Below are positions 1 through 45,611 of a stretch of DNA of 45,611 nt, piece after piece (positions within the stretch are counted from its first letter, which is position 1; every line of letters begins with the position of its first letter). The position numbers and the translations under genes are program-made. The notes under the pieces are model-generated. The model worked only from the letters and a program-made list of their open reading frames with translations, was not told where the DNA came from and made no database searches. This DNA comes from Fimicolochytrium jonesii (taxonomy: Eukaryota). Location: the NCBI RefSeq assembly GCF_025526975.1, contig NW_026515704.1:248001-293611 (forward strand), read 5' to 3'.

Positions 1-48
1 TATATGCGACTGCCCCGTTTCGTTCTCCCGCACCCTAGTTAGCCCTTT

Positions 49-4634: not shown

Positions 4635-6404
4635 CTATCCGTCGTTTATCCCGTTCAGCTGGCTCTTAACGGCAGCATCCACCAGCCCCAGGACTTCTTC
4701 GTGCGGGATCCAGATCCACTCCTCGTTCTGCCAGCCCCGTGCGTCGCCGTCGCCTTGCTTTGCGGGACGCCAGCCTTTCGGGACGGGTTTCCCACGGTAT
4801 TTTTTCTCATACTCCTCCTTCCACATCGCTTTCCCAATGAAGTGCACGAGGCCGCGCATGCGGGACATCCGGCGGAACCCTCGGGACCCGAACACGGGTG
4901 GAAGGATCTCCACGACCGCCGAGTCTGGCCGCATCACCATCGTGAAGCTCATGCCGGCGCCGTGGTGGCCGACCAGCACGTCCGAAGCGTGGATGAGCCG
5001 GACCTGTTCCTTCTTGGACATGGTGCCCAAGTCGACAACGTTGACCTGAAACCCCGGGTGCTGCGCACGTATCGATTCGACCAGTTGGTCGATGTGGCGG
5101 AACTTGCGCGTCTTGGCCCGCTGAATCACTGTGATCGTCGGCTGGCGATGGATGTCGGCCGCTGAGCGCTCCTTCAATCCGTAGAACTTGAAGATCCAGC
5201 GCACGAATGTCGACAGCAGCGTCTCGCGCCGGCACGTCTCGTACGTGGCGCTGAGCAGGGCCGACCAGAACGGGCTGGCCCAGCCGACTGTCCCGATGAC
5301 CACGTCGTAACAGGTGTCTGGCGAGAGCTGGGAGTAGCGCAAGGGCGTTCGGCCGGTCAGCATCTTCCATTCCGCATCCCATGGCCCTTTGCGATTGTCG
5401 GGGAAAACCACCAGCGCCTTTTTGATTTGCTCCTCCGTCAAGAGCGGATTTCCCGTAGCGGGATCGATGGCGATGCGCATCGCGTCGTATGACAGCTTGT
5501 TCTGCCAAAGCTCCATCAGCCTATGCCATACATTGTCATTATGCTCCTTCAGCGCCGGATAGATGATCAGCTGCCTCTTGCTGGTATTTTTGTCACACCG
5601 GAGCGTGCTATTGCCCTCCAACATGGCTCCGTAGCTGACTTCCGGAATAGGGGTCCCATAAATGACAGGCCGCTTCACCTGGGGACCAGTGCATTGTGCG
5701 TGGAACTTGCGCTCGGTCTGGTTGAAGGTCACGCCCTGCAGCAGATAGACGGGCGTGGCGCCAGTGAGTTTCCTATGGTGCGGGTGCGTCTGGACGGCGA
5801 ATCCGTGCACCCGAGAGCCGCCGTCACATAGCGTTTCCGAACTGTTTGCGATGTTGTACACGTAGTCGTCTGTGAAGAACGACTGGCAGAGCTCGTCGTC
5901 CTTCGACTTGTACTCATCCGGTAGGTCCAGGTACGGCCGCCGTTCCACTTTACGACCCTCTGCGGGGACGACGCGGGTCCGGGAAAGCGCCGAGGGGTTA
6001 ATTTTTGACGAAGGGGCGACGGCCTTCAGACTCGATGCAGTTGCGGTGGGAGCTCGATCCAAGTTCTGGGGAACAGTGGGAACAGTGAGAACTGCTGGTG
6101 GCGGACCGCTGGGAGTTCGGTCCAATTTCTTGGGAACAGTGGGAACAGTGAGCACTGCTGGTGGTGGACCGGGGGCAGCGTGTCTGGGGTTCGATGCAGA
6201 AGCGTGTGCCGATGGAGCTCGCTGCAACTTCTCCGGGACGGTGAGCACCGGTATCGCTGCCGTTGCGACCGCCGAAGTCCTTCTTGCAAAGACGCTTGAA
6301 GCAGTGTAGTAGTATGAATACCCGGTTGCGGTGAGGAGCAGGACGGTCGCGGCCAGCCGGACAAACTTCCTATGTCGCCAGGGTGCGACTGCGGCGACGG
6401 TCAT
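4635..6404 (-). CDS. Glycosyltransferase family 61 (DUF563 / EOGT-like), type II membrane protein
   Basis: Intronless 589-aa ORF with an N-terminal TM anchor and Pro/Thr-rich stem. The C-terminal GT61 signature reads ITVIQR...RKF...VVDLGTMSKKEQVRLIHASDVLVGHHGAGMSFTMVMRPDSAVVEI. Confidence 0.85.
   Translation of the reverse strand: MTVAAVAPWRHRKFVRLAATVLLLTATGYSYYYTASSVFARRTSAVATAAIPVLTVPEKLQRAPSAHASASNPRHAAPGPPPAVLTVPTVPKKLDRTPSGPPPAVLTVPTVPQNLDRAPTATASSLKAVAPSSKINPSALSRTRVVPAEGRKVERRPYLDLPDEYKSKDDELCQSFFTDDYVYNIANSSETLCDGGSRVHGFAVQTHPHHRKLTGATPVYLLQGVTFNQTERKFHAQCTGPQVKRPVIYGTPIPEVSYGAMLEGNSTLRCDKNTSKRQLIIYPALKEHNDNVWHRLMELWQNKLSYDAMRIAIDPATGNPLLTEEQIKKALVVFPDNRKGPWDAEWKMLTGRTPLRYSQLSPDTCYDVVIGTVGWASPFWSALLSATYETCRRETLLSTFVRWIFKFYGLKERSAADIHRQPTITVIQRAKTRKFRHIDQLVESIRAQHPGFQVNVVDLGTMSKKEQVRLIHASDVLVGHHGAGMSFTMVMRPDSAVVEILPPVFGSRGFRRMSRMRGLVHFIGKAMWKEEYEKKYRGKPVPKGWRPAKQGDGDARGWQNEEWIWIPHEEVLGLVDAAVKSQLNGINDG
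6049..6251. repeat. 63-bp coding tandem repeat in the GT61 stem (PPPAVLTVPTVP-x-x-LDR), two copies plus a diverged third
   Basis: Units start at 6049 and 6112 (period 63), with a degenerate copy from ~6214. Confidence 0.85.
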
Positions 6405-8205: not shown

Positions 8206-11200
8206 TCATGCCACATTTGGCACATGGTTTTTAACAATGAGCAACGTGCCCTGGCCGTTGGGCAGCGTTTGCGTAGTTACTTTCACTGTTTCGCCGTCGC
8301 GGATGGAGCCCTCTGTGCACGTGAAGTAGATAGATGATAATGAGCAGGTTGAACATGCGGCTTGTGATGTGGAGTGATTATTGGACTTACCGATGAGGGC
8401 CTCGGCCAGGGGACTCATGAGCCGCTTCTGTATGACTCGGTTGAGCGGTCGTGCGCCTATCAAGAGGGATTTTGTCAGTCTCAATGCAAGAACTCCGAAC
8501 GCATTCCGCGCCTGGCCATCAGAGACGACCAACATACCATAAGCAGGATCATACCCCTCCTCCGCCAACCACTCCTTCGCCGCATCGTCCACATCCAGCG
8601 TCAGTTTATGGTCCTGCACGCGTTTAGCAACGTCTTTGATGCGCACGTCCACGATGTCGCGGATGCGGGCGCGGGAGAGGCGGTTGAAGACTACTAGTTC
8701 GTCCACTCTGGTAGTGCGGAAAAGGAGAGTTGTTTTATGATCAGTATGAGGAAGTGTGATGTGGACGAATGGAAGGGGACTTGCCTGTTGATGAATTCCG
8801 GAGGGAAGTGTTCACGGACTGCGCCGAGAACTTGCGCTTTGGCTTGGGTGGTCAGCTCGCCTTCGGGTTGGAGGGTCAGGTAGTCGGCACCTAGAAAGCG
8901 GATTATGTTAATTTCTCAGTCTGGGCGTTCCCACTGAGCTATGAAAGTAACATACCTAGGTTCGACGTCATGATGATGATGGTGTTGCGGAAGTCGACCT
9001 TGCGGCCTTGCGAGTCGGTTAAAAAGCCGTCGTCTAGGACTATCGTTTGTACGATCGCAGGAATGATGAGGCAATGGAAACAGTCAGTGAATGTGATCAC
9101 TAATACAATCTAGCCAATAGAAACAGTGATGAAGCCTACCTTGCAGAAGGATATTGTTCACCTCCCGATGCGCCTTCTCTATCTCATCCAGTAGCACGAC
9201 CGAATACGGTTTTCGGCGTACGGCTTCCGTCAACTCGCCGCCTTCCTCGTACCCGACATAGCCCGGGGGCGCGCCGATGAGCCTTGACACGGAGAACTTC
9301 TCCATGTATTCGCTGGGAAAATGTTTGTCATGTTTAGTACACTTCTCCAACAAAGTTTTACGTTCAACTTGACCCTCACCTCATATCAATCCGGACAATG
9401 GCCGACTCCGTATCAAACAAAAACTGTGCCAACGCTTTGCACAGCTCCGTCTTTCCCACTCCCGTGGGTCCCAAAAACATAAACGACGCAACCGGCCTAG
9501 TCTGCGACTGCAACCCCGCCCTACTCAACCTTACAGCCTCCGTCACAGCCTCAATCGCCTCATTTTGCCCAACCACCCTCTGCTTCAAAGCCTCCTGCAT
9601 ATGCAACAACTTCTCCCGCTCGCCTTTCATCAGCGTCTGCACGGGGATCCCCGTAGCTTTCGCGACCACTTTCGCGATATCGTTAGCCGTAACGCGTTCG
9701 TGGAGGAGACGTTCAGGGCCTTCGGTTTCCTCAGTGTCTTGAGGGATCTGACGTTCTAGCGCTGGGATTTCTTGATAGAGGAGTTGGGAGGCCCGGGTGA
9801 GGTCGCCGTCGCGTTGAGCTTTTTCGAAGTCGACGCGCGCTTGTTCGAGCCTTTGTTTGATGGTTTTGATCTCGTTGATGCGGGCCCGCTCGGTCTCCCA
9901 GATTTTGGTGAGCTCGTCTTGTTGGCGTTTTTTGTCTGATAGCTCGTTTTCGAGTTTCTCGCGGCGTTCTTGGGAGACTGCGTCTCGTTCCTGCAGAGGA
10001 TCATGTTAATAGTGGTAGGTGCATTGACACGTCGCTCTGCACAGGCAATTAGGTGGCTTACATTCTTCAGAGACTCGAGTTCGATCTCCGTCGTCAAGAT
10101 TTGCCGCTCCAGGTTCTCCAGCGCTTCTGGCTTACTCTCCTGCGCCAGACGAAGCGCCGAGCAGGCTTCGTCGACGAGGTCAATGGCTTTGTCCGGTAAG
10201 AACCGGTCGCTGAAAGGACAAGAACATGTAAACCACCGGGACGCATCGCAGAGGCGCCATGGTGCAAGAGGCAAAACGAGGCAAAAGCACTTACGTGATG
10301 TAGCGATGCGAGTACTGGGCGGCCATGACTAATGCGCTGTCGGCAACCCGCACTCCGTGATGGACTTCATATTTCTCTTTCACTGGTTTGAGCAACAGTA
10401 GAGTCAGTGTCCACCTTTCAAACTAAATGACGGCAATTGTACAACAAACAAAAAACACTTACATCCACGCAAGATCGAAATCGTCTCCTCAACAGTCGGC
10501 TCCCTCACAAGAACCGACTGAAACCGCCTCGCCAATGCCGCATCCTTCTCGATGTACTTTCGATACTCGTTGATGGTGGTGGCGCCCGCGCAGTGCAACG
10601 TGCCGCGAGCCAGCGCTGGTTTGAGCATGTTGCTGGCGTCCATGCCGCCTTCGCCTTTACCGAGGCCGAAGAGGGTGTGGAGCTCTGTGGGAAGAGGGGG
10701 CGGTGAGTGACAGAGTAGGTTCGAGTCCTCTCAGACGGGGACTTACCATCAATGAAGAGCACAATCTTGCCCTCTTCAGCCTGCACGTCGGTCAACACCG
10801 CTTTCAGTCGTTCTTCAAATTCACCTCTAGAACGGCCGCATTGCCTCAATATCTCAGCTTCACCCGCCTCCCGCACGCTCTCCTAACTGAAAGCTTACCG
10901 ATACTTGCTCCCGGCAACAAGCTGCCCTAGATCAAGCGCAATCACCCTTTTGCCCTTCATGCTTTCCGGCACTTCCCCTTTGACAACGCGCTGCGCTAAA
11001 CCTTCGATGATGGCGGTCTTCCCCGCTCCGGCTTCGCCTATGAGCACTGGGTTGTTCTTTGTTCGGCGACACAATCTGTTGTATGGTGCATCAATATCCT
11101 GTGCGTTGGTAAGGGCAATGATGCAAAACAATGCACTTACACTTGTATTGTACGCCTAATTTCCTCATCTGCATTCGGAGAGAGCGGGATTAATCGTATT

Positions 11201-12864: not shown

Positions 12865-15800
12865 ATGTCCTACGACCAGCAATACGGGCGGGGCGCACCT
12901 TCGGCTCCTCCTCGCAGCTACACGCAGGGGACTTCTGGGTCGTCCAGTGCGGGTGGATACCGGAACAACCAGCAGTATGCTCAGCAACCGCCACGGCAGC
13001 AAATGCCGCAAGTTCCCGCGCGGAGCAACTCCCAGCCGTATCAAATGCAACCGAGCCCCCCGCCGCAAGCGCAATTTCCGTCTCCACGCCCTTACGGTGG
13101 GAGCGAGCGGTCATACACTGGTTCGGCTTCGGCTTCCGGCCGGAGTCAAGCAGGCTCTGCGCACCCTCTTAGCCCTCATGTGCCGCCGCAGGCCGGACCG
13201 GCCTACAATGGTGAGCTTCGTTTGGGGTAAGAACACTCTTGCCCTATGATTCTGATTACCTTATCGCCTGCACAGATCCTCGCGCATTCGGATCTCCCAA
13301 TGGGTTCCTCGGTCAGAACCCAAATGCTCCCGGCATGGGCGGCTATGCCCCGATCGACTATCTGCCACGTAAGAAAACCGTGCGCAAGATCCCACTGACT
13401 CCACAAGGAAACTTGGTGGTGGACATTCCCGTCTCGGACAAAGTGTTGAGCAATGGCAAACACCGCCAAGAGGAGGAGTTTTCCCACATGCGATACACTG
13501 CCGTGACCTGCACGGCAGATGAGTTTTCCACCAAGGGTTACAGCCTGCGTCAGCAAGAATACGGCCGTCACACGGAAATTTTTATCGTCGTTACCATGTA
13601 CAACGAGGATGATTTCCTTTTCTGCAAGTCCATGCAGGCGATTATGAAGAACATTGCCCACTTGTGCACTCGTTCCCGGTCCAAGACTTGGGGAAACGAG
13701 GGCTGGAAGAAGGTCGTGGTCTGCATTGTGTCGGATGGTCGTACAAAGGTCAACCGACGTGTGTTGGATGTGCTAGGTCTCATGGGAGTCTACCAGGATG
13801 GAGTCATGAAGGATCACGTCAACGAGAAGCCTGTCACGGCTCATTTGTTTGAGTACACCACGCAGGTTGCTGTGGATCCGCAGCTGAATATTAAGGGTTA
13901 CGACAAGGGTTTTGTGCCGGTCCAGATTCTGTTTTGCTTGAAGGAGAAGAACGCCAAGAAGGTAGGTCCCAGTGATTCAGCAGTTATGAACATCGGTGAC
14001 AATCAGCTAATCTCTTCAAACCCCTTTAGATCAACTCGCACAGGTGGTTCTTCAGCGCCTTCGGACCGCTCATCAAGCCCAACATCTGCATGCTTATCGA
14101 CGTCGGAACAAAGCCCCAGGAAACCTCTTTATACCACCTGTGGAAGGCATTCGACCGAAACCCCTCCGTGGCAGGGGCTTGCGGTGAAATCTACGCCGAG
14201 CTCGGCACCGGCTGCAGCAATCTTCTCAACCCCCTGGTCGCCGCGCAGAACTTCGAGTACAAGATGTCCAACATCCTCGACAAGCCTCTCGAATCCGTCT
14301 GCGGTTACATTTCGGTGCTTCCCGGAGCTTTCTCTGCATATCGGTACATTGCTCTTCAAGGCAAACCCTTGTCGCAGTACTTCAAGGGCGAGACGATGCA
14401 CGGCGGAGCTTCCGTGTCGACCGCCAACATGTACTTGGCGGAGGATCGTATCCTATGTTTTGAGCTCGTGACAAAAAAGGATCAGGCGTGGGTGCTGAAG
14501 TACGTCAAGTCGGCCAAGGCCGAAACGGACGTTCCCGACAATGTTCCCGAGTTTATCTCCCAACGTCGTCGTTGGTTGAACGGGAGTTTCTTTGCTGGTG
14601 TGCACGCGCTGCAGCATTGGTACCACATCTTCAAGAGTGGTCACAATATCGGACGCAAAATGCTGCTGTTGCTCGAGTTCCAGTACAATGCTATTATGAC
14701 CCTCTTCAACTGGTTCGGTTTGGTGAGTCATCGCTGTTCTGTTGATATGCTCAGGTTTCGACTGACGGCGGTTGTCGTTGGTTCTAACGCTCTTTTCCTA
14801 TGCAGTCATTCTTCTACCTCACCTTCTACTTCCTGGCGCAAACCACCCAACCCACCGAAACCACCTCCGGGCAGAAAAACTGTGACGGACTTTTCGGATG
14901 TTACGGGACCGACATCTTCGCTATCCTCCGCCAAGTCTACATCGCCGCCATCGTCACCTGCTTCATCTCAGCCATGGGCAACCGGCCACAAGGCTCACGT
15001 TGGATTTACATCGGATGCATGGTCCTGTTTGCTCTCATCATGGGCATCATGCTCTTCTTCTGTGGATACAGCGTCTACACTGCAGTGGATAGTGCATTCG
15101 CGTCACGCACTGTAAAGGGGTGGACTGACATCAAGGGGGTCCTGATGATTCCGCGATTGAGGGATATCGCCTTGTCGCTGGCCGCGACGTATGGCCTGTA
15201 CCTGATCTCCAGTTGCATGTTTTTGGAGCCGTGGCATCTGGTCACGTCGTTCTTGCAGTACCTTGCGCTTATGCCCAGTTTCATCAACATTCTGATGATC
15301 TATGCATGTAAGTCTTCCGGTCTTCGCCCCACTCGTTGAGTCTTTGGGGGAATGCTGACCGCCTTCTCTTATTCGTCAATAGTCGCCAACCTGCACGACG
15401 TGTCCTGGGGAACCAAAGGCGACAATTCCGCAGCCACAGATCTCGGCGCCGTAACCTCCTCCAAATCCAAAGACGGCACGCACGTGGTTTCCGTCGAGAT
15501 GCCCAGCGAACGCACCGACATCAACGCATCCTACGACAAGTTTCTCAAATCGCTCGCGCAGCCGCGGCCAGACGGCAAGCAGAAGCGTGACGCAAAGACG
15601 AAGCAGGAGGATCATTTTAAGCAGTACCGAACGAATTTACTGCTGTCGTGGATGTTTAGCAATGCGTTGGTTATTATCGTGTTGACTACGCCCGCGCTGG
15701 CGGGCAAGGTGATGACGGGGTTAGGCGTTACTCAGCGGCAGGAGGACTTCAACCCGTTTTTGAAGGTGAGATTTATCAACACTCTTCCTCCCTCGGCGAT

Positions 15801-29075: not shown

Positions 29076-31572
29076 ATGGGGCAGAGGACTTGCGCGATAG
29101 TCACAGGTAAGCATACGTATGCAGACTCTTTCTCCAGTTTGCCATCTTGACCAACCACACTCCTGCAGTCAGCGACCGAGTATCCGCCGGAACAGCGGAG
29201 GACCGCAGCGGTCCAGCTTTAGCACAGCTGCTCACGAACGCGCAATGGGAGGTAGTGGAGCGGCAGACAGTGCCCGACGAGAGCGCCAATATACAGTCCG
29301 TCGTGGAACGGCTTGTGGAGAATGGCGTTGATTTGATTGTCACGACGGGTGGGACGGGCTTCTCGCCAAGGGATGTTACTCCCGAGGTAAGCGATGAGAT
29401 AAGCGGCCAGACGCTTTAGATACCTTTTTACCTAACCGTATATCTATCCCGCAAAAAGGCCATTGCTCCCCTCCTCGAGCGTCAAGCACCCGGCCTCGTG
29501 GTCGCCATGATAACCACCTCCCTCGAAAAAACGCCCATGGCAGCGCTCTCGCGGCCCGTATGCGGCACGAAAGGCAAATCGGTCATCATCACGCTTCCCG
29601 GGAGTGTGAAGGGCAGCACGGAGAATCTGGAGAGTGTGTTGGACGTTTTGCCGCACGCGGTGGACTTGGCGAAGGGGGATGTGGGAGCTGCGGAACAGAC
29701 GCATAAGGGGATGAGTGGGGCCGAGGTAGGGGCTGAGAGTGTGGGGGGGCATTCAGAGGGAGGCCGGCGAGAGCATCACTGTCATCACCATCATCACCAC
29801 CATCATCCCCATCATGGGCATCACCACAACCCTGCGCATGGAGACCGCCCACCGGCGACAGGAGCAGGGACAGACGACGGGAATATACCCGTCGCACGGC
29901 GGCCGCGGACATCCCAGTACCCGATGGTCTCCTTCGAAGACGCGTTGGCAACGGTCGTTGCGCAGGCACCGCTGTTGGTTGCGGAACAGACTTTCATCAC
30001 AAGTCCGAATGTCGTGGGTTCGATATTGGCGGAGGATGTAAGATCTAGAGAGGCCGTGCCGAACTATAGGGCATCGATTGTGGATGGGTATGCGGTGGTA
30101 GGTGTGTTGCGCATCACGTGCCCCTTGTCCCATTACTTGAAGCAGAAGAACGAAGCAGCGGACTGACACCCCATCGTCCCGAACTAGTCACGGACGGCCC
30201 CGGCACCTACCCAGTCCTAACCGCCTCGACCGCCGGCACCTCCACCGTCCCGACCCTCCACCCCGGTCAAATCGCCCGAATCGCCACCGGCGCCCCACTT
30301 CCCCCCGGCGCCACCGCCGTCGTCATGGTCGAAGACACAACTCTCATCAAAGCCTCCGCCGATAACCACACGGAAGAACTAGTCCAAATCCACGTCAAAC
30401 AACGCCTTAACGATAACATCCGCGAGATCGGATCGGATGTCGCGCTGGGTGACCTGGTTCTCGCCAAGGGGTCTATAATCACACCCGCGGAGATCGGTCT
30501 ACTTACATCGGTGGGCGAGGTGGCCGTGCGGGTCATCCGCAAACCAAGGGTCGCGGTCATGTCGACGGGGAACGAGGTGCTCGAGGCGGATGCAAAGGAG
30601 CTTTATTATGGGTGTATTAGGGACTCGAATCGGCCCATGCTGCTTTCGGCGGTTGCGGAAGCTGGGTTTGCGGGGAGGGATTATGGGACTGTTCGAGATC
30701 GGTATGTAGGTCTGATGCTGCGTTGTGGGTAAAGCTGGAAGTCTCCGTTCGCGCATCATTGTTGCTGATAATTTACCGTCTCCCTTTCGTACCCCACGCA
30801 GGACCGCCGACCTAGAAACAAGCATACGCACCGCTCTCACCGAATGCGACGTGCTCGTCACAACCGGCGGCGTCTCAATGGGCGAACTCGACCTGCTCAA
30901 ACCGGTATTGGAGAAAGGACTGGGTGCGAAGATCCATTTCGGGCGTGTTATGTTGAAGCCGGGGTATTGTATCTTCCTCTTGCGGGTTATGGTGCGGTAT
31001 GCAAGTTCCGATGGACTCATCCAGGTCTATCTCTGAAACAGCAAACCAACGACGTTCGCAACACTAACCCTCCCGACCGACCCAACCGCGACACCCAAAT
31101 TGATCTTCGCACTCCCCGGCAACCCTGTCTCGGCGTCGGTCACGTTCTACCTCTTCGTCCTGCCCGCGTTGCGCAAGATGGCGGGGTATGAGCATCCGTA
31201 TCTGCCTAGTGTGAAGGCTGAGGTAAGGCAAATGTGCCCTCTGCTACTACGCACTCCATCGGACAACCAGGATTCTGACGTTGACGATTCTTTCTAACCT
31301 AGCTTTCATCCCCCGTAACCCTCGACCCCGCCCGCCCCGAGTTCCACCGCGCCTACCTCTCCATCGCCGTCGACAACACTGCCACGTCCGCTACCAACAG
31401 CGACGGTTCACCACGCACGCGGACACGCATCGTAGCCCACAGCACGGGCTCACAGCGCTCGAGCCGGATGCTGAGTATGCGTGGCGCTAATGCTTTGTTG
31501 AAACTGCCGGCGGGGGATGGGGTGTTGGGGGTGGGGGAAGTGGTTGAAGGGGTTATGTTTCGCGGGTTTTGA
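29076..31572 (+). CDS. Gephyrin/Cnx1-type molybdenum cofactor protein (MogA G-domain + MoeA E-domain), multi-exon
   Basis: Motifs [40 protein letters not shown], a His-rich linker, [52 protein letters not shown] and QRSSRMLSM. Confidence 0.95.
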
Positions 31573-33331: not shown

Positions 33332-34929
33332 ATGGGCTACCACCGGGTCTTCATCGGTAAGCCAAGAGACCATGGCCTGGAAGCTGTCAAAAACGTCCCT
33401 ACCGCCATTCCCCCATTTCCAGCCCATTTCCCCACACATCCAAAACTAACCAACCGGCCATTTCCACAATAGGTCGGCTCCCGCGGGACGTTACCAGACA
33501 TGAAATCCGCAAGCTCACGCGCCGCTACGGTCCAGTCGAGGATATCCACTGCCTGTCCGGGTTCGCGTTCGTCGAGTTTGACTATAGCGCGGACGCGAGG
33601 GATTGTGTGAGGGATTTGGACGGTGTACGGTTCGCTGGAGAGAGGTGGGTCGTTTGTCGTTTCTTTGAACATCCGGATCCTCCGGTCTTTGTGTGTCTTT
33701 TCTCGACTTCCAAACGCACTTATGCTAACGTTTCCCACGGTTTCTTCAATTTAGACTGCAAGTCGAACCCGCTCGCCTTCAAGAAAGAGCTCCTCCCAGG
33801 GAACCTCCTCGTCGCCGTTCTCCAGATATTTACATTCCGCCCAAGCGCAACGACTACAGGTTTGGAAGGGCAAAAAAAACGGGTTTTCGTGGTGTTTCGG
33901 CAGCTCCGGCACAGTCACGACCTCACATTTTTGACGTGTTTTGACAGCGTTACTGTCACTGGACTGCCTGAGAGTGCGAGTTGGCAGGTACGGATGGCCA
34001 AGTGTTGGTGAAAAATGCTGGACTTTGAGCGGTGGAGAATCGGATTCGGAGAAATGACGGGCGAGAAGCGGGGAATGTTTGAGCTTACACCTAACGGCGA
34101 ACGTTTTCCTTCATGGGAACCCTACAAACTTCTACTCTGCGCACCTGTCAGCGCTCCCTGGTGGGAATCACACTTCTTCCGCATGCTACGTGCGCTACTA
34201 CTCTACTGGCTGCTGCTGCATTCAACCGGACGGGAGGGTCCCTGAAGCTGCTACTATCTACTTTATACGCTGGATGACATGACACGTCTGGGGGTCACCC
34301 GCCTCCTTCTCCTCCTCCTACATCGCGCCGAAGCTTCCATCGTCTCACCACTCATCTGCTCCTCCACTCGGGCAGGACCTGAAAGACCTCATGCGTAAAG
34401 TTGGAGAAGTCGCTTACGCGGACATTGAGCGTCCCGGGACAGGGTGAGTGACTTTTATCAATTGGCGCAACCGCTGCGATATAAGCCCTCATGTTAAGCC
34501 ACGCAACCCGTCCCATCCTCCCCAACCCGTCCCCAGGAGGGTGGAATTTACATGCGAAGCGGACGTCGAGGAAGCCATCTCCAAGTTCAACAACTCCGAG
34601 CATGAGGGAAGGACTTTGACCGTCACGCAGGTAATCGTTCCGGAACCCCCATTCGCCTTCCCATACACTCCAAAAGAAACCCCTCAACTCATTTTCGCAC
34701 ATACACACAGAACGCCCCAAAATGGCATGACCAGAAAGCCGCAGCGCCCAAATCCGCTCTTCCCGTCCGTGTGGATGAAAAGAACGGCAGGCGTAGCGCG
34801 TCCCCTTCCCCTGCGCGTGAGAAAACCGCCAGGCGTCCCACGCCACCTCCCTTCAAGAGTAGGTCCCGGTCCCCGAGTGCGCAGCGAGGTCGGAGGTCTG
34901 TTACGCCCTCGCCAGTTCCGTTTCGTTGA
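33332..34929 (+). CDS. SR splicing factor with RRM + pseudo-RRM (SRSF4/5/6 / Srp2-like), multi-exon
   Basis: MGYHRVFIG|RLPRD...GFAFVEF (RNP1), VTVTGLPESASWQ|DLKDLMRKVGEVAYAD (SWQDLKD) and an RS/SP-rich tail ending at TGA 34927-34929. Confidence 0.9.
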
Positions 34930-36384: not shown

Positions 36385-36688
36385 TGTTACTTTGTAGTTT
36401 TGTAGGGTTGGTGGGAACGAGGTTGGTATGATGGGCGTTGAGGGTCTGGTTTGAGTGGGCTATTGCAGAGGGGTCTTTGGCAGTTTCTGTGGGGGATTGC
36501 GCTCGATGGAGTTGATTGTCGGACACGGCGGTTTAAACGGTGCATTTAAAGAATCCACGTGATATGTCCACTCCAAGTGACATCTTGCGCTGTCAGTGAG
36601 GCCGTCGTCTGCTCTTCCCCAAAGCCACCAACTCGTCAGTGAGTGCAAACGAAGCCGTAGCCAACCGACTTATTCACTGCTACGTACT

Positions 36689-37711
36689 ATGGACGGCCGC
36701 CGACCCACTTATCGCTTCCATCCAGGCCGCTGGCGAACTGCCGCCCTCTCAGTTTCATTATTGCTCCTGATCCTCGCCACTACAGCCACCGCCTCCTCCG
36801 GCGACCGGGATTCAATCTACACCAACTGCGTTCAAAAATGCCGCTTCACATCCTGCCGCAACCAACCCGCAGCCGACGAATCCCTCCCACTCTCCCTCCG
36901 CCTCCTCCAATGGACTTGTCCGCAAAACTGCCAATACGAATGCATGCACGATCTCACTTCCCTCAACGTGCAAACCGGCGAGCGCGTGCAGCAATTCCAC
37001 GGCAAATGGCCGTTCATTAGACTGTGGGGGGTACAGGAACCAGCTAGCGTGCTGTTCTCGGTATTGAATGGGTGGATGCACTTCCGGGGATACCGGAAAC
37101 TGAGGACGCTGTCTCCAAGATGGTACCCCATGCGCCGGGTCCTGCTCCTGAACGCATTACTGGGCGTGAACGCATGGATCTGGTCGACGGTCTTCCACGC
37201 CCGGGATTTCCCCATCACCGAGAAACTCGATTACTTCTCCGCGATTGGGTCGCTGCTGATGGGCAGCTACCTCGCCCTCACTCGCGCGTTCGAGCTGTAC
37301 CGCGACCCCGCGACATCCACACCCACCCGCCGGGGGCTAGCCTACGCGATGCTAGCATTCTACGCTGCGCACGTCTCCTACCTAACATTCTGGCCGTTCG
37401 ACTACGGGTACAACATGAAAGCCGGCATCGTCGTCGGCGCGGTGGCGAATCTCGCATGGGTGAGCTGGGCGGTGCGCAACTGGAGAACGCGGCCGTACGC
37501 GTGGAAGATTGTGGTGATGGTGGTGGCAATCACGGCGGCGATGGCGTTGGAGGTTCTGGATTTCCCGCCGTGGATGTGGGTGCTGGATGCGCATGCGCTG
37601 TGGCATGCCGCGACGATACCGCTGGTGAGGTTTTATTATGAGTTTTTGGTGGATGATGTGAGGTGGGAGGTCAGGATTGGGAAGGGGAAGGGGAAGGTTG
37701 CTGTGCAGTAA
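36689..37711 (+). CDS. PER1: Per1/PGAP3 GPI-remodelling protein
   Basis: Signal peptide, SSGDRD..Y..C, WTCPQNCQYECMH, QFHGKWPF, QEPASVLFS, WSTVFHARD, EKLDYF and DFPP...DAHALWH. Confidence 0.95.
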   Translation: MDGRRPTYRFHPGRWRTAALSVSLLLLILATTATASSGDRDSIYTNCVQKCRFTSCRNQPAADESLPLSLRLLQWTCPQNCQYECMHDLTSLNVQTGERVQQFHGKWPFIRLWGVQEPASVLFSVLNGWMHFRGYRKLRTLSPRWYPMRRVLLLNALLGVNAWIWSTVFHARDFPITEKLDYFSAIGSLLMGSYLALTRAFELYRDPATSTPTRRGLAYAMLAFYAAHVSYLTFWPFDYGYNMKAGIVVGAVANLAWVSWAVRNWRTRPYAWKIVVMVVAITAAMALEVLDFPPWMWVLDAHALWHAATIPLVRFYYEFLVDDVRWEVRIGKGKGKVAVQ

Positions 37712-39381: not shown

Positions 39382-40116
39382 TTACTCCAACTTGCCCAGA
39401 ATCTCCTCCTCCCTATACAAAAACATCTCCTTCTCCCCAACCTTAACCTGGTTTCCCCCATACGGCGGCAGCAGTACACGCTCGCCCTCCTTGATGCTCA
39501 TCGGTCTTACGGACGAAGAGTCCTTTGCGGGTGCGCCGGGCCCGACCGCGACGACGATGCCTTCGTTGAGGGTTTCTTGTGCTTTCTCGGGGATGAAGAG
39601 GCCAGAAGCTGTGCGCTGTTGAGGCGGGGAGATGGAGGATTAGTGGGGTTTAGAGGGGAGAGAGCGCCGGGAACAAGTGGGTGTTCGTTTCGAGCATACC
39701 TCAGGAGCCTTGATCCGCTGGATGAGCACGCGGTCGAAGAGAGGGATGATCTTGCTGGCTTGCTTGAAGGTGGACTGTTAAAAACAAGAGGCAAGCTTTC
39801 CATCAGTATGCTGATTTTTTCGTTCTTCGGCGTTTCTGTTTGTTTCGACTGCCCAGATCACTTCCGTCCCCCCCATCCTGCCCGACGGGTTCACATGACG
39901 ACGAGAAGGACTACCGCAAAGGTGTCCCCGACCCCCCCGGCGTAACCAGCTTCCTCCGCGCCGAAAACTATTTCCGCCTTCGCTGACTCCTTCCCGTAGC
40001 ACCCAGTCCGAAATCCTCGCTATTTTCGCCGAGTGTGAGGGAAAGCCACACCAATAAAGGGACGCTAGACACTACTTCAAACCAAGCGAGAGCACGCTTC
40101 AGCAGCAACCTACCAT
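39382..40116 (-). CDS. HSP10: Mitochondrial co-chaperonin Hsp10; the first coding exon is the ATG only
   Basis: ATG|GTAGGT at 40116-40114 and an intron at 39775-40113. Then IIPLFDRVLIQRIK, TASGLFIPEKAQ, VVAVGPG, GERVLLPPYGG and LYREEEILGKLE*. Confidence 0.93.
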
Positions 40117-41574
40117 AGCTGCGAATTTGGACTGCGTCGACAGGGGATGAGCGCTTGAGAGATCGTCGTCCGTTGTGTGTGTGCGAGCGACGAGGGTTGA
40201 AATACGACGTCGGAAGTTCCCTCGTGACCGCGCGCGTTTTTTCCATTTCGTTCTTTTCGTTCTTTCCGCTCCATCGGCAGCGTACGTACTGGATATCAAC
40301 TTGCAACTTCACAACGGCCGCTCGTAAACCCGAACAGGCTCGGATAGGTATAAAGGATCCGATGCATGCGAACGGGGGAGTCGAGAGTCTTCAATAGGCT
40401 TCTTTGAAGAAACACCAGGAGATAATGTCCCACTTGTGGATCGACGCCGGACGCCGATTCATCCGGAAGCCACTCCCAAACGAGGTCCTACGACGACGGA
40501 CCTCGGAAACGGACTCTGGTTTTACGGATGCAGTATCATACACGGAAAGCCCGCGCAAGCTCGAAGTGGAGTATACGTGTCGCAATCACCGACGACTCGC
40601 TTCACGGCTGTCAGGTTGGCAGGAGACGCTTTCGTCTGGCACTCCACGCGCGCAATAACCCGGTGGTACGGGGTAATTGCACCTCCATCTACACCAACGC
40701 CGTACTTGCGAACTGGAAGAGGGAAAGGCCTGCCTTGTGGACTGAACCGAAGAACGGATGACCGGTCTCACGGTGTGCTGTCCGCGACCACTCACTTCGC
40801 AGATGTTTGGCAGGTACCAGTCGGGCGGTTTGAGAAAAGGGCTTGCGGAGGAAGCGGTTCGGCATTCCGGCTTCAACGCCTGGCTGATTGCCGAATTATG
40901 TTGATGCGAATATGCAGAAGAGGAACGTTGGAGACTGGGCAGGGGATGCAGGAGACACGTATTCCGGCATGGACCATGCATCCAGGCCGGACAAACAAAA
41001 GAGAGCGTTACACAACAGTAAGGCCCCTACGCCTTTCCAATCTCCAATCCGCCACATAGATTAGATTGCTCGCAAAACGGGGCCGAGGTCGCCAGGATTT
41101 CTCCAGATGGTTGGCGACAGTCATGGGCGGGGTTCCCCTTACCGATCCTATGGCAACATGTTTGCAAGCCCGCTGGAATGCCACAAGCACAGCGTTTAAG
41201 CATGTTCACACCGCTCCTCTCAGCCCTCTTGTTGAGTTCGCTGAAAGGAGCGATATGAATTATGAATACAATGAAGGAGTTGCACAGACAAAATCGCTCC
41301 TGATAGACGGACGACATGTGCCCGGGCGCTTCACATGCGTCCCCTCTGCGGGCTGTGAATCCCATTTCAGGCGTGTCACACGTTTTTGGGCATTCTTGCT
41401 AGCATAGGATTGTTCGGACGGTCTCATCTCTCTATTCCGTTCTCCGAACGCCGCGCAAGCAATTACGGGAACAAACTGATACGCCGTTTTCCGTTGTTCT
41501 GAGCTTCCGTTCGCGAATCGAGCTAAACTGCATCCCGCATGCCTGCCTCGCCCTGCCTCCCTACCCGCCATTCT

Positions 41575-41655
41575 ATGTTACAAGTTGCCATCATCGGCGA
41601 TGCCTCCGGCAGAGGTACAATGATGTGGATGGCAGATAACCACCACGGAAAATGG
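41575..41655 (-). ncRNA. Candidate Fanzor omegaRNA scaffold / element right end
   Basis: Lies directly 3' of the Fanzor stop. Nested stems GTTA/TAAC, TGCCATC/GATGGCA and CCTC/GAGG are visible, and the segment ends ...TTGTAACATA. Boundaries are inferred. Confidence 0.55.
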
Positions 41656-41675
41656 GATGGGGTGAAAACTCTAGA

Positions 41676-43729
41676 CTACCGGGAGAATGCATCTGGTCTG
41701 CGGCCATTGCCAAGCACCACCGAACGCACAATCGAGAGGAAATTCTTGGTACTTAGGACGTCCCGATTGTGCACTTTCATCCGTAGTCGTAGTGGTCGTC
41801 TTCCAGGAATCCCAAATGGCGTCCAGTCTTGGTTGATACATTCGGGGTTGGGGCAACCCACCAATCCATGGACGAACTCCTTTCTTCCCTTTCTAGCTTG
41901 CCACGGCCGAGGTGATAGCCATCGTCGGATGTTTTTCCTCACACGACCGTGGCAGTGGGGGCACACGGACGACGTTCGATACTCATCTAGCAAGTAGCAT
42001 GGAATGCTGTTTCTTGCAAAGAGTGTGCGGAATCTAATTTCCATGATGAGTTAGCATATTATAGTACATAAAAAACAATGATGGTCACTCACCCCTTGGT
42101 CTTCGATGACTCCTGAAAGCGCATCGTTTTCCCAGCATCGCTCCAATCACCCAAGATGACCGAAAAATGCTTTCCATACCGGCGTCGGATGTTCTTAATG
42201 AGCTTGCTCTCAGACTTTTGCCGCAGTGAGAACGCCTTGAATCTGCGAGCCACGTGAATCTCATCCCGGTAAAACTCATCCAGGGCGGGATCTGGGATAG
42301 GGATGTCAGCCCATGTATTACTAAATTTGAAAATCAAAATTGAAGTAGAACATTATACCCGCATGTACGTGATCCACAATGAACGCTGAGAACGCCTCGA
42401 TGTTCATGCTCTTGTGCGATGGAATATGTGATTCCATCTTGGCGATGCCGGCATTGATCTTTTGCTCTCTCATGTCGCTTTGAAAGAACCGAGATTTTGT
42501 CTCGACCGCCCGTTGATTGGATGTGTATCTGGTATGGTATGGGATGGTGCATTGTGAGGACACTGCAACGGAATGTCAAAAGCAGTAATGAACTAAAACG
42601 TACCGAAATGGCCGCTCCTTCTTGTTGTCTTGACAGAACAGGAGGTCACGCTTGCCCGGATCAATGCAGACGATGTTTGGAGCCTCCCTTAATTCGTCAA
42701 TGTGGTGCTCAAAATACAGCTGCTTGACTTCTTCCCGCATTTGGGCTTTGCTGCGCTTCCGGGCACGATACCCATACTTGAGCCCTGGCTTCTTGAAGTG
42801 GATGGTAACGGAATACCCGTTGGTGCCGATTGACCCATCAAATTTGAGACCCAGCTTCTTTCGATGTTTGAAGACCTTGTTCTGTAATCCGTCATTCAGC
42901 GACATAATCTGATTGAAATAAGCGCATAAGGATAAGGACTTACATTCATGTTGATAAACTGCCCCCACAGCTCCTGCTTGCGTTCATCAGTGAGTTTCCC
43001 CATGCGACGTCGGCCGACATCCAGGATATGAGTGCCTAGGATCAGCGTGTCGATCCGAACAGATGACTGGATTCGAGATTTGCGCAGCGGGATAGCGGAA
43101 AACAGCCGCATTCCACGGCGCTCATAAAGGTGTGAGAGCTCACAATAGGCACCTGTGATGAGGCAGGTGCAGACCAAGTTTAGACAAAAGAGGAATCCGC
43201 AGGGGGGGGGGGGGGGGGGTGGGGTTCGCTTCCTGTCGGTCAACATGCCGAGCATGCTGCTCCCCGGTCGCCTAGTGGGGACCGGCGCAAACTCCGCGCA
43301 AAGTCCCAGTGCTGCTGTATGCCCACCGCTGTATGCCCGCTGCTGCGCGATGTGGGTGTGTATGTTTGGCGCGCGGCGAACGCGTTGTCGGCGATGGCAA
43401 CAGCGCATCACAAACCACGTCGGCCGGGGTCCCAGCGCGCAGCCAATCAGCCAGGTCAGTGTACCAAGCGAGGCGCTTGCTCGCGTTGCTGCGCAGCCAC
43501 CGCACAAGCTGGGGGGGGGGGGTGGGGGGGGGTGTAGAATATACAGGATGCAACTCACCTAAAAATGGCATTGCATCCACCGCAAGGCTGTATGCAAGCG
43601 GCTCATCCTGGGGAGGAAACAGAGCCCATAACTCGTCGAGGACGGTCCGCTCAAGTCGTGTGAGGCGGCCAAACTCCTCTTCGGTTGGGTACTCTTCAAA
43701 TGTTGCGTACTTTGTGAATTGATGGACAC
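41676..43729 (-). CDS. Fanzor1 (eukaryotic TnpB-derived RNA-guided RuvC nuclease), 5' part interrupted by an LTR retrotransposon
   Basis: Exons 43729-43559, 43152-42944, 42881-42604, 42528-42359, 42291-42093 and 42033-41676 join in frame (~460 aa). Motifs: IPLR..VRIDT, FDGSIGTNGYSV, RuvC-I VCIDPGKRDLL, FRYTSNQR, ILGDWS, RuvC-II LLDEYRTSSVCPHC, VHGLVGCPNPEC, RuvC-III HNRDVLSTKNF and the terminal RPDAFSR*. Confidence 0.92.
43202..43532. repeat. Two G-tracts (G18-T-G4 and G12-T-G9) bracketing ~285 bp inside the first visible Fanzor intron
   Basis: Tracts at 43202-43224 and 43511-43532. The intron (43153-43558, 406 nt) is much longer than the other Fanzor introns (59-75 nt). Confidence 0.7.
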
Positions 43730-44259
43730 TGTTATGGACGACGCGTCCATACCATGCGCTTACCTCATGACAGCATCCCAACAGTCAGTCAATGTCAATT
43801 CCCTGTCAAAACCTGACATCTGCCAAACCTCGCAGCCGCACGCAGCCGCGCTACCCCACACCTGCCACTGCCTTCATTTCTCCACGCAGCCGCACGTAGC
43901 CACACCTCCCAACACTCGGCGCTTACAAACCCTTCTCCATACTTCCCCACGTACCCGCCCACAGCCTCAGCGTAGCCACCCCATCCCCAGTCTTCTGTTT
44001 CTATGCTTCCCCACCCTTGGCGCTTCTCTTGGCTTCCCTCTCATTCCGTACCCTTCTGCTTCCCCACGCTTCCCCAGCCTTCCCAGAAAAACATAAATAG
44101 CCGCCTCCCCTGAGCTCCCCACTTCCTGATCCCCCAGCAGATCAACACCAGTTCTTCCTAGTCTTGTTCTAGTTCTTGTTTTGGTCTGAATACCATTACC
44201 TGTCAACAACCTGCACCACAAGTCGCCTCTATTTCCATCGGCTCCGCCCATTCATAACA
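43730..44259 (+). repeat. 5' LTR of a Ty3/gypsy retrotransposon (530 bp)
   Basis: Starts TGTTATGGA and ends TTCATAACA (8/9 inverted termini, TG...CA). Contains a TATA-like ATAAATA at ~44093 and is followed at once by a PBS-like sequence and the gag ATG at 44311. The partner LTR is not in the window. Confidence 0.82.
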
Positions 44260-44310
44260 GTTTGATCTGCTCAACAACCCCCAGCCGCTGTACCTCCACG
44301 CCAAATCACC

Positions 44311-45383
44311 ATGTCCGACGCCCTTCCCCTCACGGCCGAAGCCTGGCAAGCCATGTGCAATGCGATTGACGAACTTCGAGCACAGAATACCACCCTACAA
44401 GCCGAACTAGCGCAAACCCAGACCACTGCCCCTGCCACCCACGCCCCGAACCCAAAATCAGTCTCCCAGACAAATTTGATGGCACCCGAAGCAAGTTCCG
44501 TGGGTTCCTCAACCAGATCCGGCTCATGTTCGCCCTCCAACCCAGGCGCTACCCCAACGATCAGACCAAGATACGAACTATTGGCACCTACCTCACTGGC
44601 ACCGCCCAGGCCTGGCTGGCGCCCCTTGTCGAACAAGACCATCATTCCCTTACGAACCTGGATGATTTCATCCAGCAAATGCAAGCAGTCTTTGGAGACA
44701 GCGACAGGATCCGCACATCCAAAAACAAGCTCCAGAACCTTCAACAAACCCGTGCAGCAACAGAGTATGTAGCTGAATTCCGACAGCTGCAATGCGATGT
44801 GTCGTGGAATGACCAGGCATTGATTGCCACCTTCCGTCGCGGCCTCAAAGAAGACGTCAAGGACTTAATGCTCACGATGCCCCCTACCGCCTCAATTGAC
44901 ACCGTGATGGAACAGGCCATCCAATGTGACAACCGATTGTTTGAGCGCCCTCTAGAGCGAAGCAGGAACCGACAGCCATATGTGCCAGTTACCACTAGCC
45001 CCACCCTCATGAGCCCCGACAACCGCCCAGACGACCCTATGATCATTGACGCTGCTCGTCCGGGAGGACCCCTCACACCGCTAGAGCGCCAACACCGCAT
45101 CACAAACAAACTTTGCCTCTACTATGGTAAACCCGGCCACATAGCCAAACTCTGCTCCCCGAACAAGATACGCACGGCGAATGTCGCGGTAAGGAACCTG
45201 CACCCATCCAGGATTTTGCCCAAGTCCAGCTGCAGTACAGGCCGAGCAGCTGGGCAACACCTGTCCTGGCCTTCTCACCACGCAAGTACTGCCAAGGGAG
45301 AAGCCACAAAACCGTGCTCCGATCCTGGCATCTCCAGCACACACCCTTCTCCTGACCACCAACAATGTCAATCTCCTATCTGA
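44311..45383 (+). pseudogene. gag: Retrotransposon gag, frameshifted
   Basis: The ATG 44311 frame switches near 44445 into EPKISLPDKFDGTRSKFRGFLNQIRLMF...YLTGTAQAW...LQQTRAATEYVAEF...WNDQALIATFRRGL. The zinc knuckle reads CLYYGKPGHIAKLC (second Cys replaced by Tyr). Confidence 0.85.
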
Positions 45384-45396
45384 GATACCCTCACCC

Positions 45397-45611
45397 ATGC
45401 GGACTTTGGGGCCCATCCTCACCATTCGAGTAACCCTGTTACCCTGCAGATATCGCCAGCGAGCTCCAGTTCAGCTTTCAGCACTACTCGACACCGGTGC
45501 GATGTCGTGCTTCATCGACGAAAGTTATGTCCGCAAGCACCGCATCCCACTTGTCAAGAAGGAGGACCCCATGCGCTTGTGAACTGGTTGACGGACGTCC
45601 AGCCATGCGGG
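45397..45611 (+). pseudogene. pol: Retrotransposon aspartic protease (start of pol), frameshifted and truncated by the window end
   Basis: LSALLDTGAMSCFIDESYVRKHRIP. After 45580 the typical continuation ELVDGRP is in another frame. Confidence 0.85.

What the first reader, a model, noticed from the sequence alone, without database searches (positions are those of the whole stretch)
41676..43729. Intron-rich Fanzor1 RNA-guided nuclease hidden across six exons
Seen: five GT-AG introns (43153-43558, 42882-42943, 42529-42603, 42292-42358, 42034-42092) join short minus-strand ORFs into one stop-free ~460-aa frame with consistent phases. It carries RuvC-I D (IDPG), RuvC-II E (DEYRTS), RuvC-III D (NRD) and a CPHC...CPNPEC zinc finger. 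Established: these motifs define Fanzor1, TnpB-derived omegaRNA-guided DNA endonucleases of eukaryotic transposons, first characterised in the chytrid Spizellomyces punctatus (SpuFz1). Inference: this is a spliced family member that ORF-level mining would miss, and its catalytic half could be reconstituted.
Basis: partly seen in the sequence, partly recalled or inferred. Interest (0 to 1): 0.9.

Follow-up and report, generated by a model that had tools for sequence, protein, structure and literature searches.

The report
Spliced Fanzor copy cut by retrotransposon
This is the rear 60% of a five-intron fungal gene of the Fanzor1 family (RNA-guided DNA cutters), cut in two by an inserted retrotransposon and so likely dead, with a predicted guide-RNA gene behind it; it is one of dozens of copies of an already annotated family closely related to the well-studied SpuFz1.

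Summary
The five introns join 460 stop-free codons. A spliced alignment of SpuFz1 alone recovers exactly these introns (score 951; controls 52-65). The product is 48% identical to SpuFz1, keeps the D-E-D triad and CCCC finger, and folds like it (TM 0.85).

Three corrections:
1. It is not hidden. RefSeq model XP_052921416.1 (Fimicolochytrium jonesii) is 100% identical to residues 71-460, and plain tblastn finds the locus at E=1e-84.
2. The copy is broken. A Ty3/Gypsy LTR sits in the coding sequence at 43729/43730, and about 297 N-terminal residues (most of REC) are missing from the window.
3. Intron-rich Fanzors and Ty3-split Fanzors are already published.

Two additions: a predicted 75-nt omegaRNA scaffold at 41653-41579, and the five introns are absent from the seven relative loci examined (33 of 35 site checks contiguous, 2 untestable), which carry introns at other sites. 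No RNA data were available. The scan has noted spliced Fanzors before on other DNA. Verdict: new member of a known kind.

The parts
43559..43729 (-). First exon fragment in the window (end of REC region; starts at P0022 residue 298, about SpuFz1 186), cut at its 5' side by the LTR
43153..43558 (-). Intron 1, 406 nt, phase 1, 65% GC, two poly-C tracts; at SpuFz1 residue 244
   Evidence: related sequence appears in mis-spliced paralogue P0027
42944..43152 (-). Exon 2 (WED region); holds the internal ATG (43111) where RefSeq model P0017 starts
42882..42943 (-). Intron 2, 62 nt, phase 0; SpuFz1 residue 311
42604..42881 (-). Exon 3: WED end, Tyr matching SpuFz1 Y345, RuvC-I Asp (codon 42662-42660, matches D383)
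42529..42603 (-). Intron 3, 75 nt, phase 2, contains an in-frame stop; SpuFz1 residue 401
42359..42528 (-). Exon 4 (helices of the RuvC region)
42292..42358 (-). Intron 4, 67 nt, phase 1, branch-point-like CTGAC about 20 nt from the 3' end; SpuFz1 residue 457
42093..42291 (-). Exon 5: Gly of the GDWS motif, the likely canonical RuvC-II position
42034..42092 (-). Intron 5, 59 nt, phase 2, branch-point-like CTAAC about 23 nt from the 3' end; SpuFz1 residue 524
41676..42033 (-). Last exon: alternative RuvC-II Glu (41984-41982, matches E541), CCCC zinc finger, RuvC-III Asp (41762-41760, matches D606), stop codon
41579..41653 (-). Predicted omegaRNA scaffold, 75 nt, two stem-loops (41625-41647 and 41589-41624), ending in TA; likely right end of the element (an alternative TA lies 5 nt further, at 41575-41574)
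   Evidence: prediction only
41564..41578 (-). Predicted 15-nt guide (flanking host DNA)
   Evidence: inference from the SpuFz1 75+14/15 nt layout
43730..44259 (+). 530-bp LTR of a Ty3/Gypsy element inserted in the Fanzor coding sequence, opposite orientation; 7-bp terminal inverted repeat; candidate 5-bp target duplication at 43725-43729
44262..44271 (+). Primer-binding-site position complementary (10 nt) to LTR 44136-44145, likely self-priming
   Evidence: the self-priming reading is recalled knowledge
44311..45611 (+). Ty3/Gypsy gag (frameshift near 44440) and start of protease, running off the window
   Evidence: (PF03732 E=1.7e-16, PF19259 E=5.3e-13)

Best explanation
This is the 3' 60% of a five-intron Fanzor1 gene of the SpuFz1 group, interrupted in its REC-coding region by a Ty3/Gypsy retrotransposon and therefore likely unable to make an active nuclease, followed by a predicted omegaRNA at the likely right end of a multi-copy DNA transposon. 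How the family likely works, by analogy with SpuFz1: intact copies (about 700-760 aa gene models) are spliced by the host spliceosome (junctions shown by homology, not by RNA). The protein would bind a roughly 90-nt RNA from the element's right end plus about 15 nt of flank (predicted). It would cut double-stranded DNA next to a TA-ending motif at element-free alleles (inferred), and repair would restore the element (inferred). This copy lost that role when the LTR element landed (insertion shown, loss of function inferred). Its RNA scaffold looks intact and could still load protein from intact paralogues (untested).
For: Splice structure. Homology: exon 6 vs 8GKH E=1.7e-26; P0017 vs SpuFz1 48% over 390 aa, E=9e-117; D383/E541/D606 kept as D130/E289/D363. 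Model pLDDT 93; Foldseek top four hits are SpuFz1, E 1e-36 to 3e-34, query TM 0.82-0.85. Tree: sister to Gaertneriomyces P0056 (SH-aLRT 99) within a 28-row clade (98) holding SpuFz1 (quick tree). Break: LTR begins at 43730; residues 1-297 of paralogue P0022 have no tblastn match in the window. Multi-copy: 55 F. jonesii gene models fetched, 7 with REC, triad and finger motifs. omegaRNA: motif once in the window, 0.02 expected; 22 nt after the stop vs 21 for SpuFz1 by published coordinates; 75 nt ending in TA; first hairpin z=-3.1; a like layout in L002.
Against: No RNA evidence for any junction or for the small RNA. The whole 75-nt scaffold does not fold better than shuffles (z=-0.6). The motif was chosen after I saw the resemblance, so its chance figure is optimistic. 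MAFFT did not align the window and L002 scaffolds in register, and no terminal inverted repeat was found for L002. Only 9 of 24 RNA-contacting SpuFz1 residues are identical, and N385 is Gly. The left end, the second LTR and the 5' exons are outside the window, so TIRs and target duplications are untested. The 460 codons are undamaged, which does not prove death.
Confidence: 0.85

Rival explanations
1. The truncated 390-aa product annotated in RefSeq is really made (from an antisense LTR or intron-1 promoter) and acts as a REC-less omegaRNA-binding protein, for example a dominant-negative damper of the family.
For: A gene model exists with an internal Met; the fragment folds at pLDDT 93; the frame and all splice sites are intact, while the inserted gag carries a frameshift.
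Against: The model is a prediction. 10 of 55 models have triad and finger but no REC motif, as expected of fragmentary annotation of decaying copies. One frameshift in about 1.3 kb of retroelement against none in 1.4 kb of exons is not a significant contrast (my estimate, not computed). Q130/N133 TAM contacts are lost.
Confidence: 0.07
2. The whole locus still gives a full-length nuclease because the retrotransposon is spliced out, or the junction is an assembly chimera.
For: Only one LTR is in the window, so the far junction is unseen.
Against: The LTR has clean TG..CA ends abutting a codon that matches paralogues; it lies inside an exon; equivalent Ty3-split Fanzors are in the S. punctatus data.
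Confidence: 0.04
3. The gene call is right but the 75-nt region is ordinary 3' UTR or flank; this copy's guide RNA is lost or lies elsewhere.
For: Whole-scaffold fold not significant; no Rfam match; post-hoc motif; the stop lies 2-3 codons earlier than in most paralogues.
Against: Position, length, terminal TA, the 5' motif, the loop motif and a 7-pair first stem with changes on both sides (by eye) all agree with SpuFz1, and a third lineage (L002) shares the 5' motif, length 76 and the TTGTA end.
Confidence: 0.15

Closest known systems
SpuFz1 / SPu-1 element, Spizellomyces punctatus (KNC96900.1 = P0058; PDB 8GKH, 9CEU-9CEZ; Saito 2023 PMC10432273; Bao and Jurka 2013 PMC3627910; Xu 2024 PMC11423790)
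   Same: 48% identity over 390 aa, same triad, zinc finger, fold, TAM residues R291 and Y345; multi-copy; 75-nt TA-ending scaffold about 21-22 nt after the stop; Ty3 insertions into copies are also reported there.
   Different: SpuFz1 is one ORF; this family has at least five introns. Gene models of intact paralogues carry about 125 extra N-terminal residues with a basic NLS-like run. N133 is Ala and N385 is Gly, so the TAM may differ. The scaffold sequence is strongly diverged. This copy is interrupted.
RefSeq XP_052921416.1 / KAI8816447.1 (EV422DRAFT_608315, Fimicolochytrium jonesii), 'uncharacterized protein'
   Same: 100% identical to residues 71-460 of the spliced product, so four of five junctions are already modelled.
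   Different: It starts at an internal Met, omits intron 1 and exon 1, and is not named as a Fanzor.
Intron-containing Fanzor1 of Chlamydomonas (CRe-1/2/3, CrFNuc; Bao and Jurka 2013, Jiang 2023 PMC10530073)
   Same: Spliced Fanzor1 genes (5-10 exons) in multi-copy transposons.
   Different: Helitron-associated and algal; no cleavage was detected for CrFNuc-1 in that paper. Not compared by sequence here.
Ghost Spu-1 elements (Saito 2023)
   Same: Loci that keep the omegaRNA without a working nuclease gene.
   Different: Ghosts are a separate ~550-nt family with no Fanzor ORF; this locus keeps 60% of the gene.

Membership tests
Fanzor1 | RuvC D-E-D triad | tested here: met
   D130, E289, D363 of P0017 align with SpuFz1 D383, E541, D606
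Fanzor1 | Rearranged RuvC-II: Gly/Pro at the canonical site, alternative Glu downstream | tested here: met
   G253 and E289 invariant in 121 rows; definition in Jiang 2023; spacing is 36 residues against 'about 45'; G253 as the canonical site is my reading
Fanzor1 | CCCC zinc finger | tested here: met
   C296, C299, C332, C337 at least 90% conserved
Fanzor1 | Fold and tree position with Fanzor1 rather than Fanzor2 or TnpB | tested here: met
   Foldseek ranks 1-7 are all Fanzor1 (E to 1e-36); TnpB 8IAZ E=3e-3 and Fanzor2 9B0L E=4.5e-3; tree (no TnpB or Fanzor2 rows included)
Fanzor1 (functional copy) | Complete N-terminal WED/REC lobe in one reading frame | tested here: not met
   Interrupted by an LTR at 43730; P0022 1-297 absent from the window. 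Met by paralogue models: 7 of 55 hold all motifs
Fanzor1 | omegaRNA encoded at the right end | tested here: inconclusive
   Sequence and structure resemblance; no small-RNA data
SPu-1-like TIR elements | About 30-bp TIRs and TA target duplication | not testable with these tools
   Left end outside the window, no genome held; no second copy of the right-end sequence in the window
Fanzor1 | RNA-guided, TAM-dependent dsDNA cleavage | not testable with these tools
   Needs biochemistry
Ty3/Gypsy LTR retrotransposon (the insert) | TG..CA LTR, gag, protease | tested here: met
   protease match is weak (E=0.006, below cut-off); RT and integrase lie beyond the window

The most novel reading that the evidence does not exclude
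Chytrid Fanzor1 genes are intron-turnover hot spots: this family gained at least five spliceosomal introns in 1.4 kb of coding sequence at sites empty in every relative sampled, while SpuFz1 lost an older intron (residue 164) that five other loci keep; and retrotransposon-broken copies like this one persist as 'proto-ghosts' that go on supplying guide RNAs to intact paralogues in trans.
Probability: 0.3. Interest if true: 0.55.

Novelty: new member of a known kind. Interest (0 to 1): 0.32.

Why it matters
The family, not this copy, is the useful thing. It is a natural SpuFz1 orthologue at about 45-50% identity with intact-looking paralogues, changed TAM-reading residues and a predicted guide scaffold, so it is a ready candidate for a compact editor with a different target motif. 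The diverged scaffold also points to the RNA features that matter. The intron pattern offers a small, datable case of intron gain and loss inside a mobile nuclease gene. None of this changes what is known about how Fanzors work.

Tried and rejected
No whole genome is held, so paralogue DNA, the left end and the far LTR could not be read. Sequencing runs: none was listed; no evidence either way. Metagenome scan with P0017 found no relative. Single-sequence fold failed (pLDDT 32) and was replaced by an alignment-based one. Pfam gives no Fanzor family above cut-off (best PF07282 E=0.009 on exon 6). Rfam: nothing at E<=1 in 40500-45611. No TIR for L002, and L003 is the same locus as L002. Fixed-gap pattern over 44 loci: no match, uninformative because the gap length was not tuned. 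Apparent introns near window sites in L005 (315) and L008 (458) were rejected as frameshifts. Intron 1 as a unique nested insertion: disfavoured, since paralogue P0027 carries related sequence. A general PCNA-binding motif: not supported, 2 of 130 proteins vs 0.85 expected. Three JGI/ENA 'cluster members' (P0030, P0043, P0047) are unrelated small proteins and were dropped. The careful tree did not finish; only the quick tree is used. Literature: 'Fimicolochytrium', 'Fanzor + chytrid' (74), 'Fanzor + intron gain' (51) and 'Fanzor1 + orthologs + SpuFz1' (75) listed no paper on this family; Saito supplements have 0 hits for the genus (one scanned file and one oversized PDF unread). Jiang supplement searches were uninformative, as Spizellomyces also scored 0. 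The Yoon preprint's supplements and Xu Data S1 were not seen and may list the family.

Full report
1. Observation. Splicing gives one stop-free frame of 460 codons from 43727 to the stop at 41676-41678. Keeping any single intron ends the frame at codon 142-343. It returned exactly these five introns, with score 951 against 56 on the opposite strand and 52-65 for ten shuffled proteins. Paralogous gene models that hold both flanks of a junction show the same spacing in 7/7, 15/16, 17/17, 33/35 and 42/42 cases. They are predictions from similar DNA, so this is weaker support. No sequencing run was listed, so there is no RNA confirmation.

2. The protein. The last exon alone matches SpuFz1 in the PDB (8GKH, E=1.7e-26) and PpFz1 (E=8e-11). 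All 13 hits of the first protein search are Fimicolochytrium jonesii gene models at 69-94% identity. One cluster member, P0017 (XP_052921416.1, 390 aa), is 100% identical to residues 71-460 of the spliced product, so this locus or an identical copy is already annotated as a spliced but unnamed gene. P0017 is 48% identical to SpuFz1 (E=9e-117). The catalytic residues named by Saito et al. (D383, E541, D606) are kept; N385 is Gly; 9 of 24 listed RNA-contact residues are identical; R291 and Y345 are kept. A model built on 121 sequences has pLDDT 93, and its first seven Foldseek hits are Fanzor1 structures, SpuFz1 at E 1e-36 and query TM 0.82-0.85. A quick tree of 39 rows puts the family next to a Gaertneriomyces protein (SH-aLRT 99) inside a 28-row clade (98) that holds SpuFz1; the backbone is mostly unresolved. 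Neighbouring genes (chitin synthase, Per1, Cpn10, PI3/4-kinase) fit a fungal chromosome.

3. The copy is broken. The coding sequence runs up to 43729 and meets a 530-bp LTR (43730-44259) with a 7-bp terminal inverted repeat, followed by gag (PF03732 E=1.7e-16) and a protease-like frame on the opposite strand. The break falls at residue 298 of the 761-aa paralogue P0022 (about SpuFz1 186), and residues 1-297 have no match in the window. The missing part holds most of REC, including the Q130 and N133 positions that read the TAM in SpuFz1. Saito et al. report 11 S. punctatus loci with extra genes, including Ty3 inside the Fanzor gene, and their supplement shows one split as residues 18-91 / Ty3 / 91-638. 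Of 55 F. jonesii models fetched, 7 hold REC, triad and finger motifs and 10 hold triad and finger without REC, which fits a multi-copy, partly decayed element family. The count is a sample, not a census.

4. SpuFz1's RNA is a 75-nt scaffold plus 14-15 nt of flank, starting 21 nt after the stop by the published coordinates. In the window a 75-nt stretch starts 22 nt after the stop (41653) and ends in TA at 41579. A motif shared by the two SpuFz1 RNAs shown matches once in the window with one mismatch, at 41635-41652, against 0.02 expected; I chose it after seeing the likeness, so the figure is optimistic. The first hairpin folds at z=-3.1 and a second, bulged one follows, but the whole scaffold is not more stable than shuffles (z=-0.6). 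By eye the first stem can be drawn with seven pairs plus one bulge, three pairs changed on both sides relative to SpuFz1; Xu et al. describe seven pairs in all three solved Fanzor1 RNAs. Locus L002, from another branch, has the same 5' motif 13 nt after its stop, a hairpin-plus-bulged-hairpin layout in its centroid fold and the same five last bases at 76 nt. Against: an automatic alignment did not put the two in register, and no inverted repeat was found for L002. I put the call at about 80%.

5. Intron history. SPu-1 is a single ORF. A metagenome scan gave 37 loci and a viral scan 7. I examined the seven most similar distinct loci that span the gene (L001, L002, L004, L005, L006, L008, L011); L003 duplicates L002, L007 is partial, and the rest (mostly 22-37% identity) were left out. 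At the window's five sites (SpuFz1 244, 311, 401, 457, 524) 33 of 35 checks are contiguous and 2 have no alignment across; one of these is a frameshift. Five of the loci have introns elsewhere and so are genomic: residue 164 in L001, L002, L004, L006, L008; 585 in L002 and L008; about 534 in L001 and probably L006. The window lacks the 534 and 585 introns; 164 lies in the missing part. The simplest reading is five gains on the branch to this family or to its pair with Gaertneriomyces (exon structure not seen), and loss of the 164 intron in SpuFz1. This is inference from few loci on a weak backbone.

6. Mechanism. Shown: spliceable frame, Fanzor1 fold and triad, LTR insertion, many paralogous models. 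Inferred from SpuFz1: splicing, nuclear import, binding of the right-end RNA, cutting of element-free sites beside a TA-ending motif, and restoration by repair (the last is a proposal in Saito's discussion). For this copy, loss of nuclease function is inferred. Continued supply of guide in trans is possible and untested.

7. Novelty. Introns in Fanzors are published: up to about 9.6 per kb, found with annotated proteins and gene predictors (Jiang 2023), and 5-10 exons in Chlamydomonas elements (Bao and Jurka 2013). Here the density is about 3.6 per kb of coding sequence. Plain tblastn finds the locus at E=1e-84. I found no paper naming this family, with some supplements unseen. The scan's own notes list other spliced Fanzors in other genomes and none for this sequence; I did not check them. 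Papers seen: Saito 2023, passages and supplement searches; Jiang 2023, passages and supplement searches; Bao and Jurka 2013, Xu 2024 and Yoon 2023 preprint, passages only. The self-priming reading of the LTR is recalled; one search was a listing only. Verdict: new member of a known kind, interest 0.32.

Noticed in passing
window 44136-44145 and 44262-44271: The primer-binding position of the Ty3/Gypsy element is complementary over 10 nt to a stretch inside its own LTR about 35 nt after a TATA-like box, as in self-priming Tf1/sushi-type elements (family trait recalled).
   Followed up: partly
window 44311-44460: The gag start (ATG 44311) is in a different frame from the capsid domain, so the retroelement itself carries a frameshift or an assembly error.
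   Followed up: partly
window 43153-43558: Intron 1 is 65% GC (other introns 31-44%) with two poly-C tracts about 290 nt apart; paralogue model P0027 reads through related sequence in a different order, and P0033 through a low-complexity expansion at intron 3, suggesting repeat-driven length changes in the family's introns.
   Followed up: partly
L002 2752-2990: This Rhizophlyctis-like Fanzor starts with a basic run and a PIP-box-like motif (ITDFF) in a disordered N-terminal extension; not general among 130 relatives.
   Followed up: partly
P0003, P0010, P0012, P0013, P0022, P0027, P0033, P0048: F. jonesii paralogue models share about 125 extra N-terminal residues, proline-rich, with an RRKRRK run; P0027 is modelled as fused to an unrelated acidic C-terminal region, probably a prediction artefact.
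   Followed up: no
L009, L010, L012, L013, L020: A distant Fanzor-like element shares about 95 nt after its stop codon across several contigs and then diverges, marking a likely guide-RNA end; same pattern in L015 and L023.
   Followed up: no
window 6047-6171: Two 63-nt tandem copies (90% alike) inside a long ORF with a glycosyltransferase-61 domain.
   Followed up: no
window 43-2298, 8206-10005, 13215-15115, 29420-30732, 33361-34011, 36581-37711, 39382-39860: Ordinary fungal genes: PI3/4-kinase, ClpB-like AAA protein, chitin synthase, MoeA-like, RRM protein, Per1, Cpn10.
   Followed up: no
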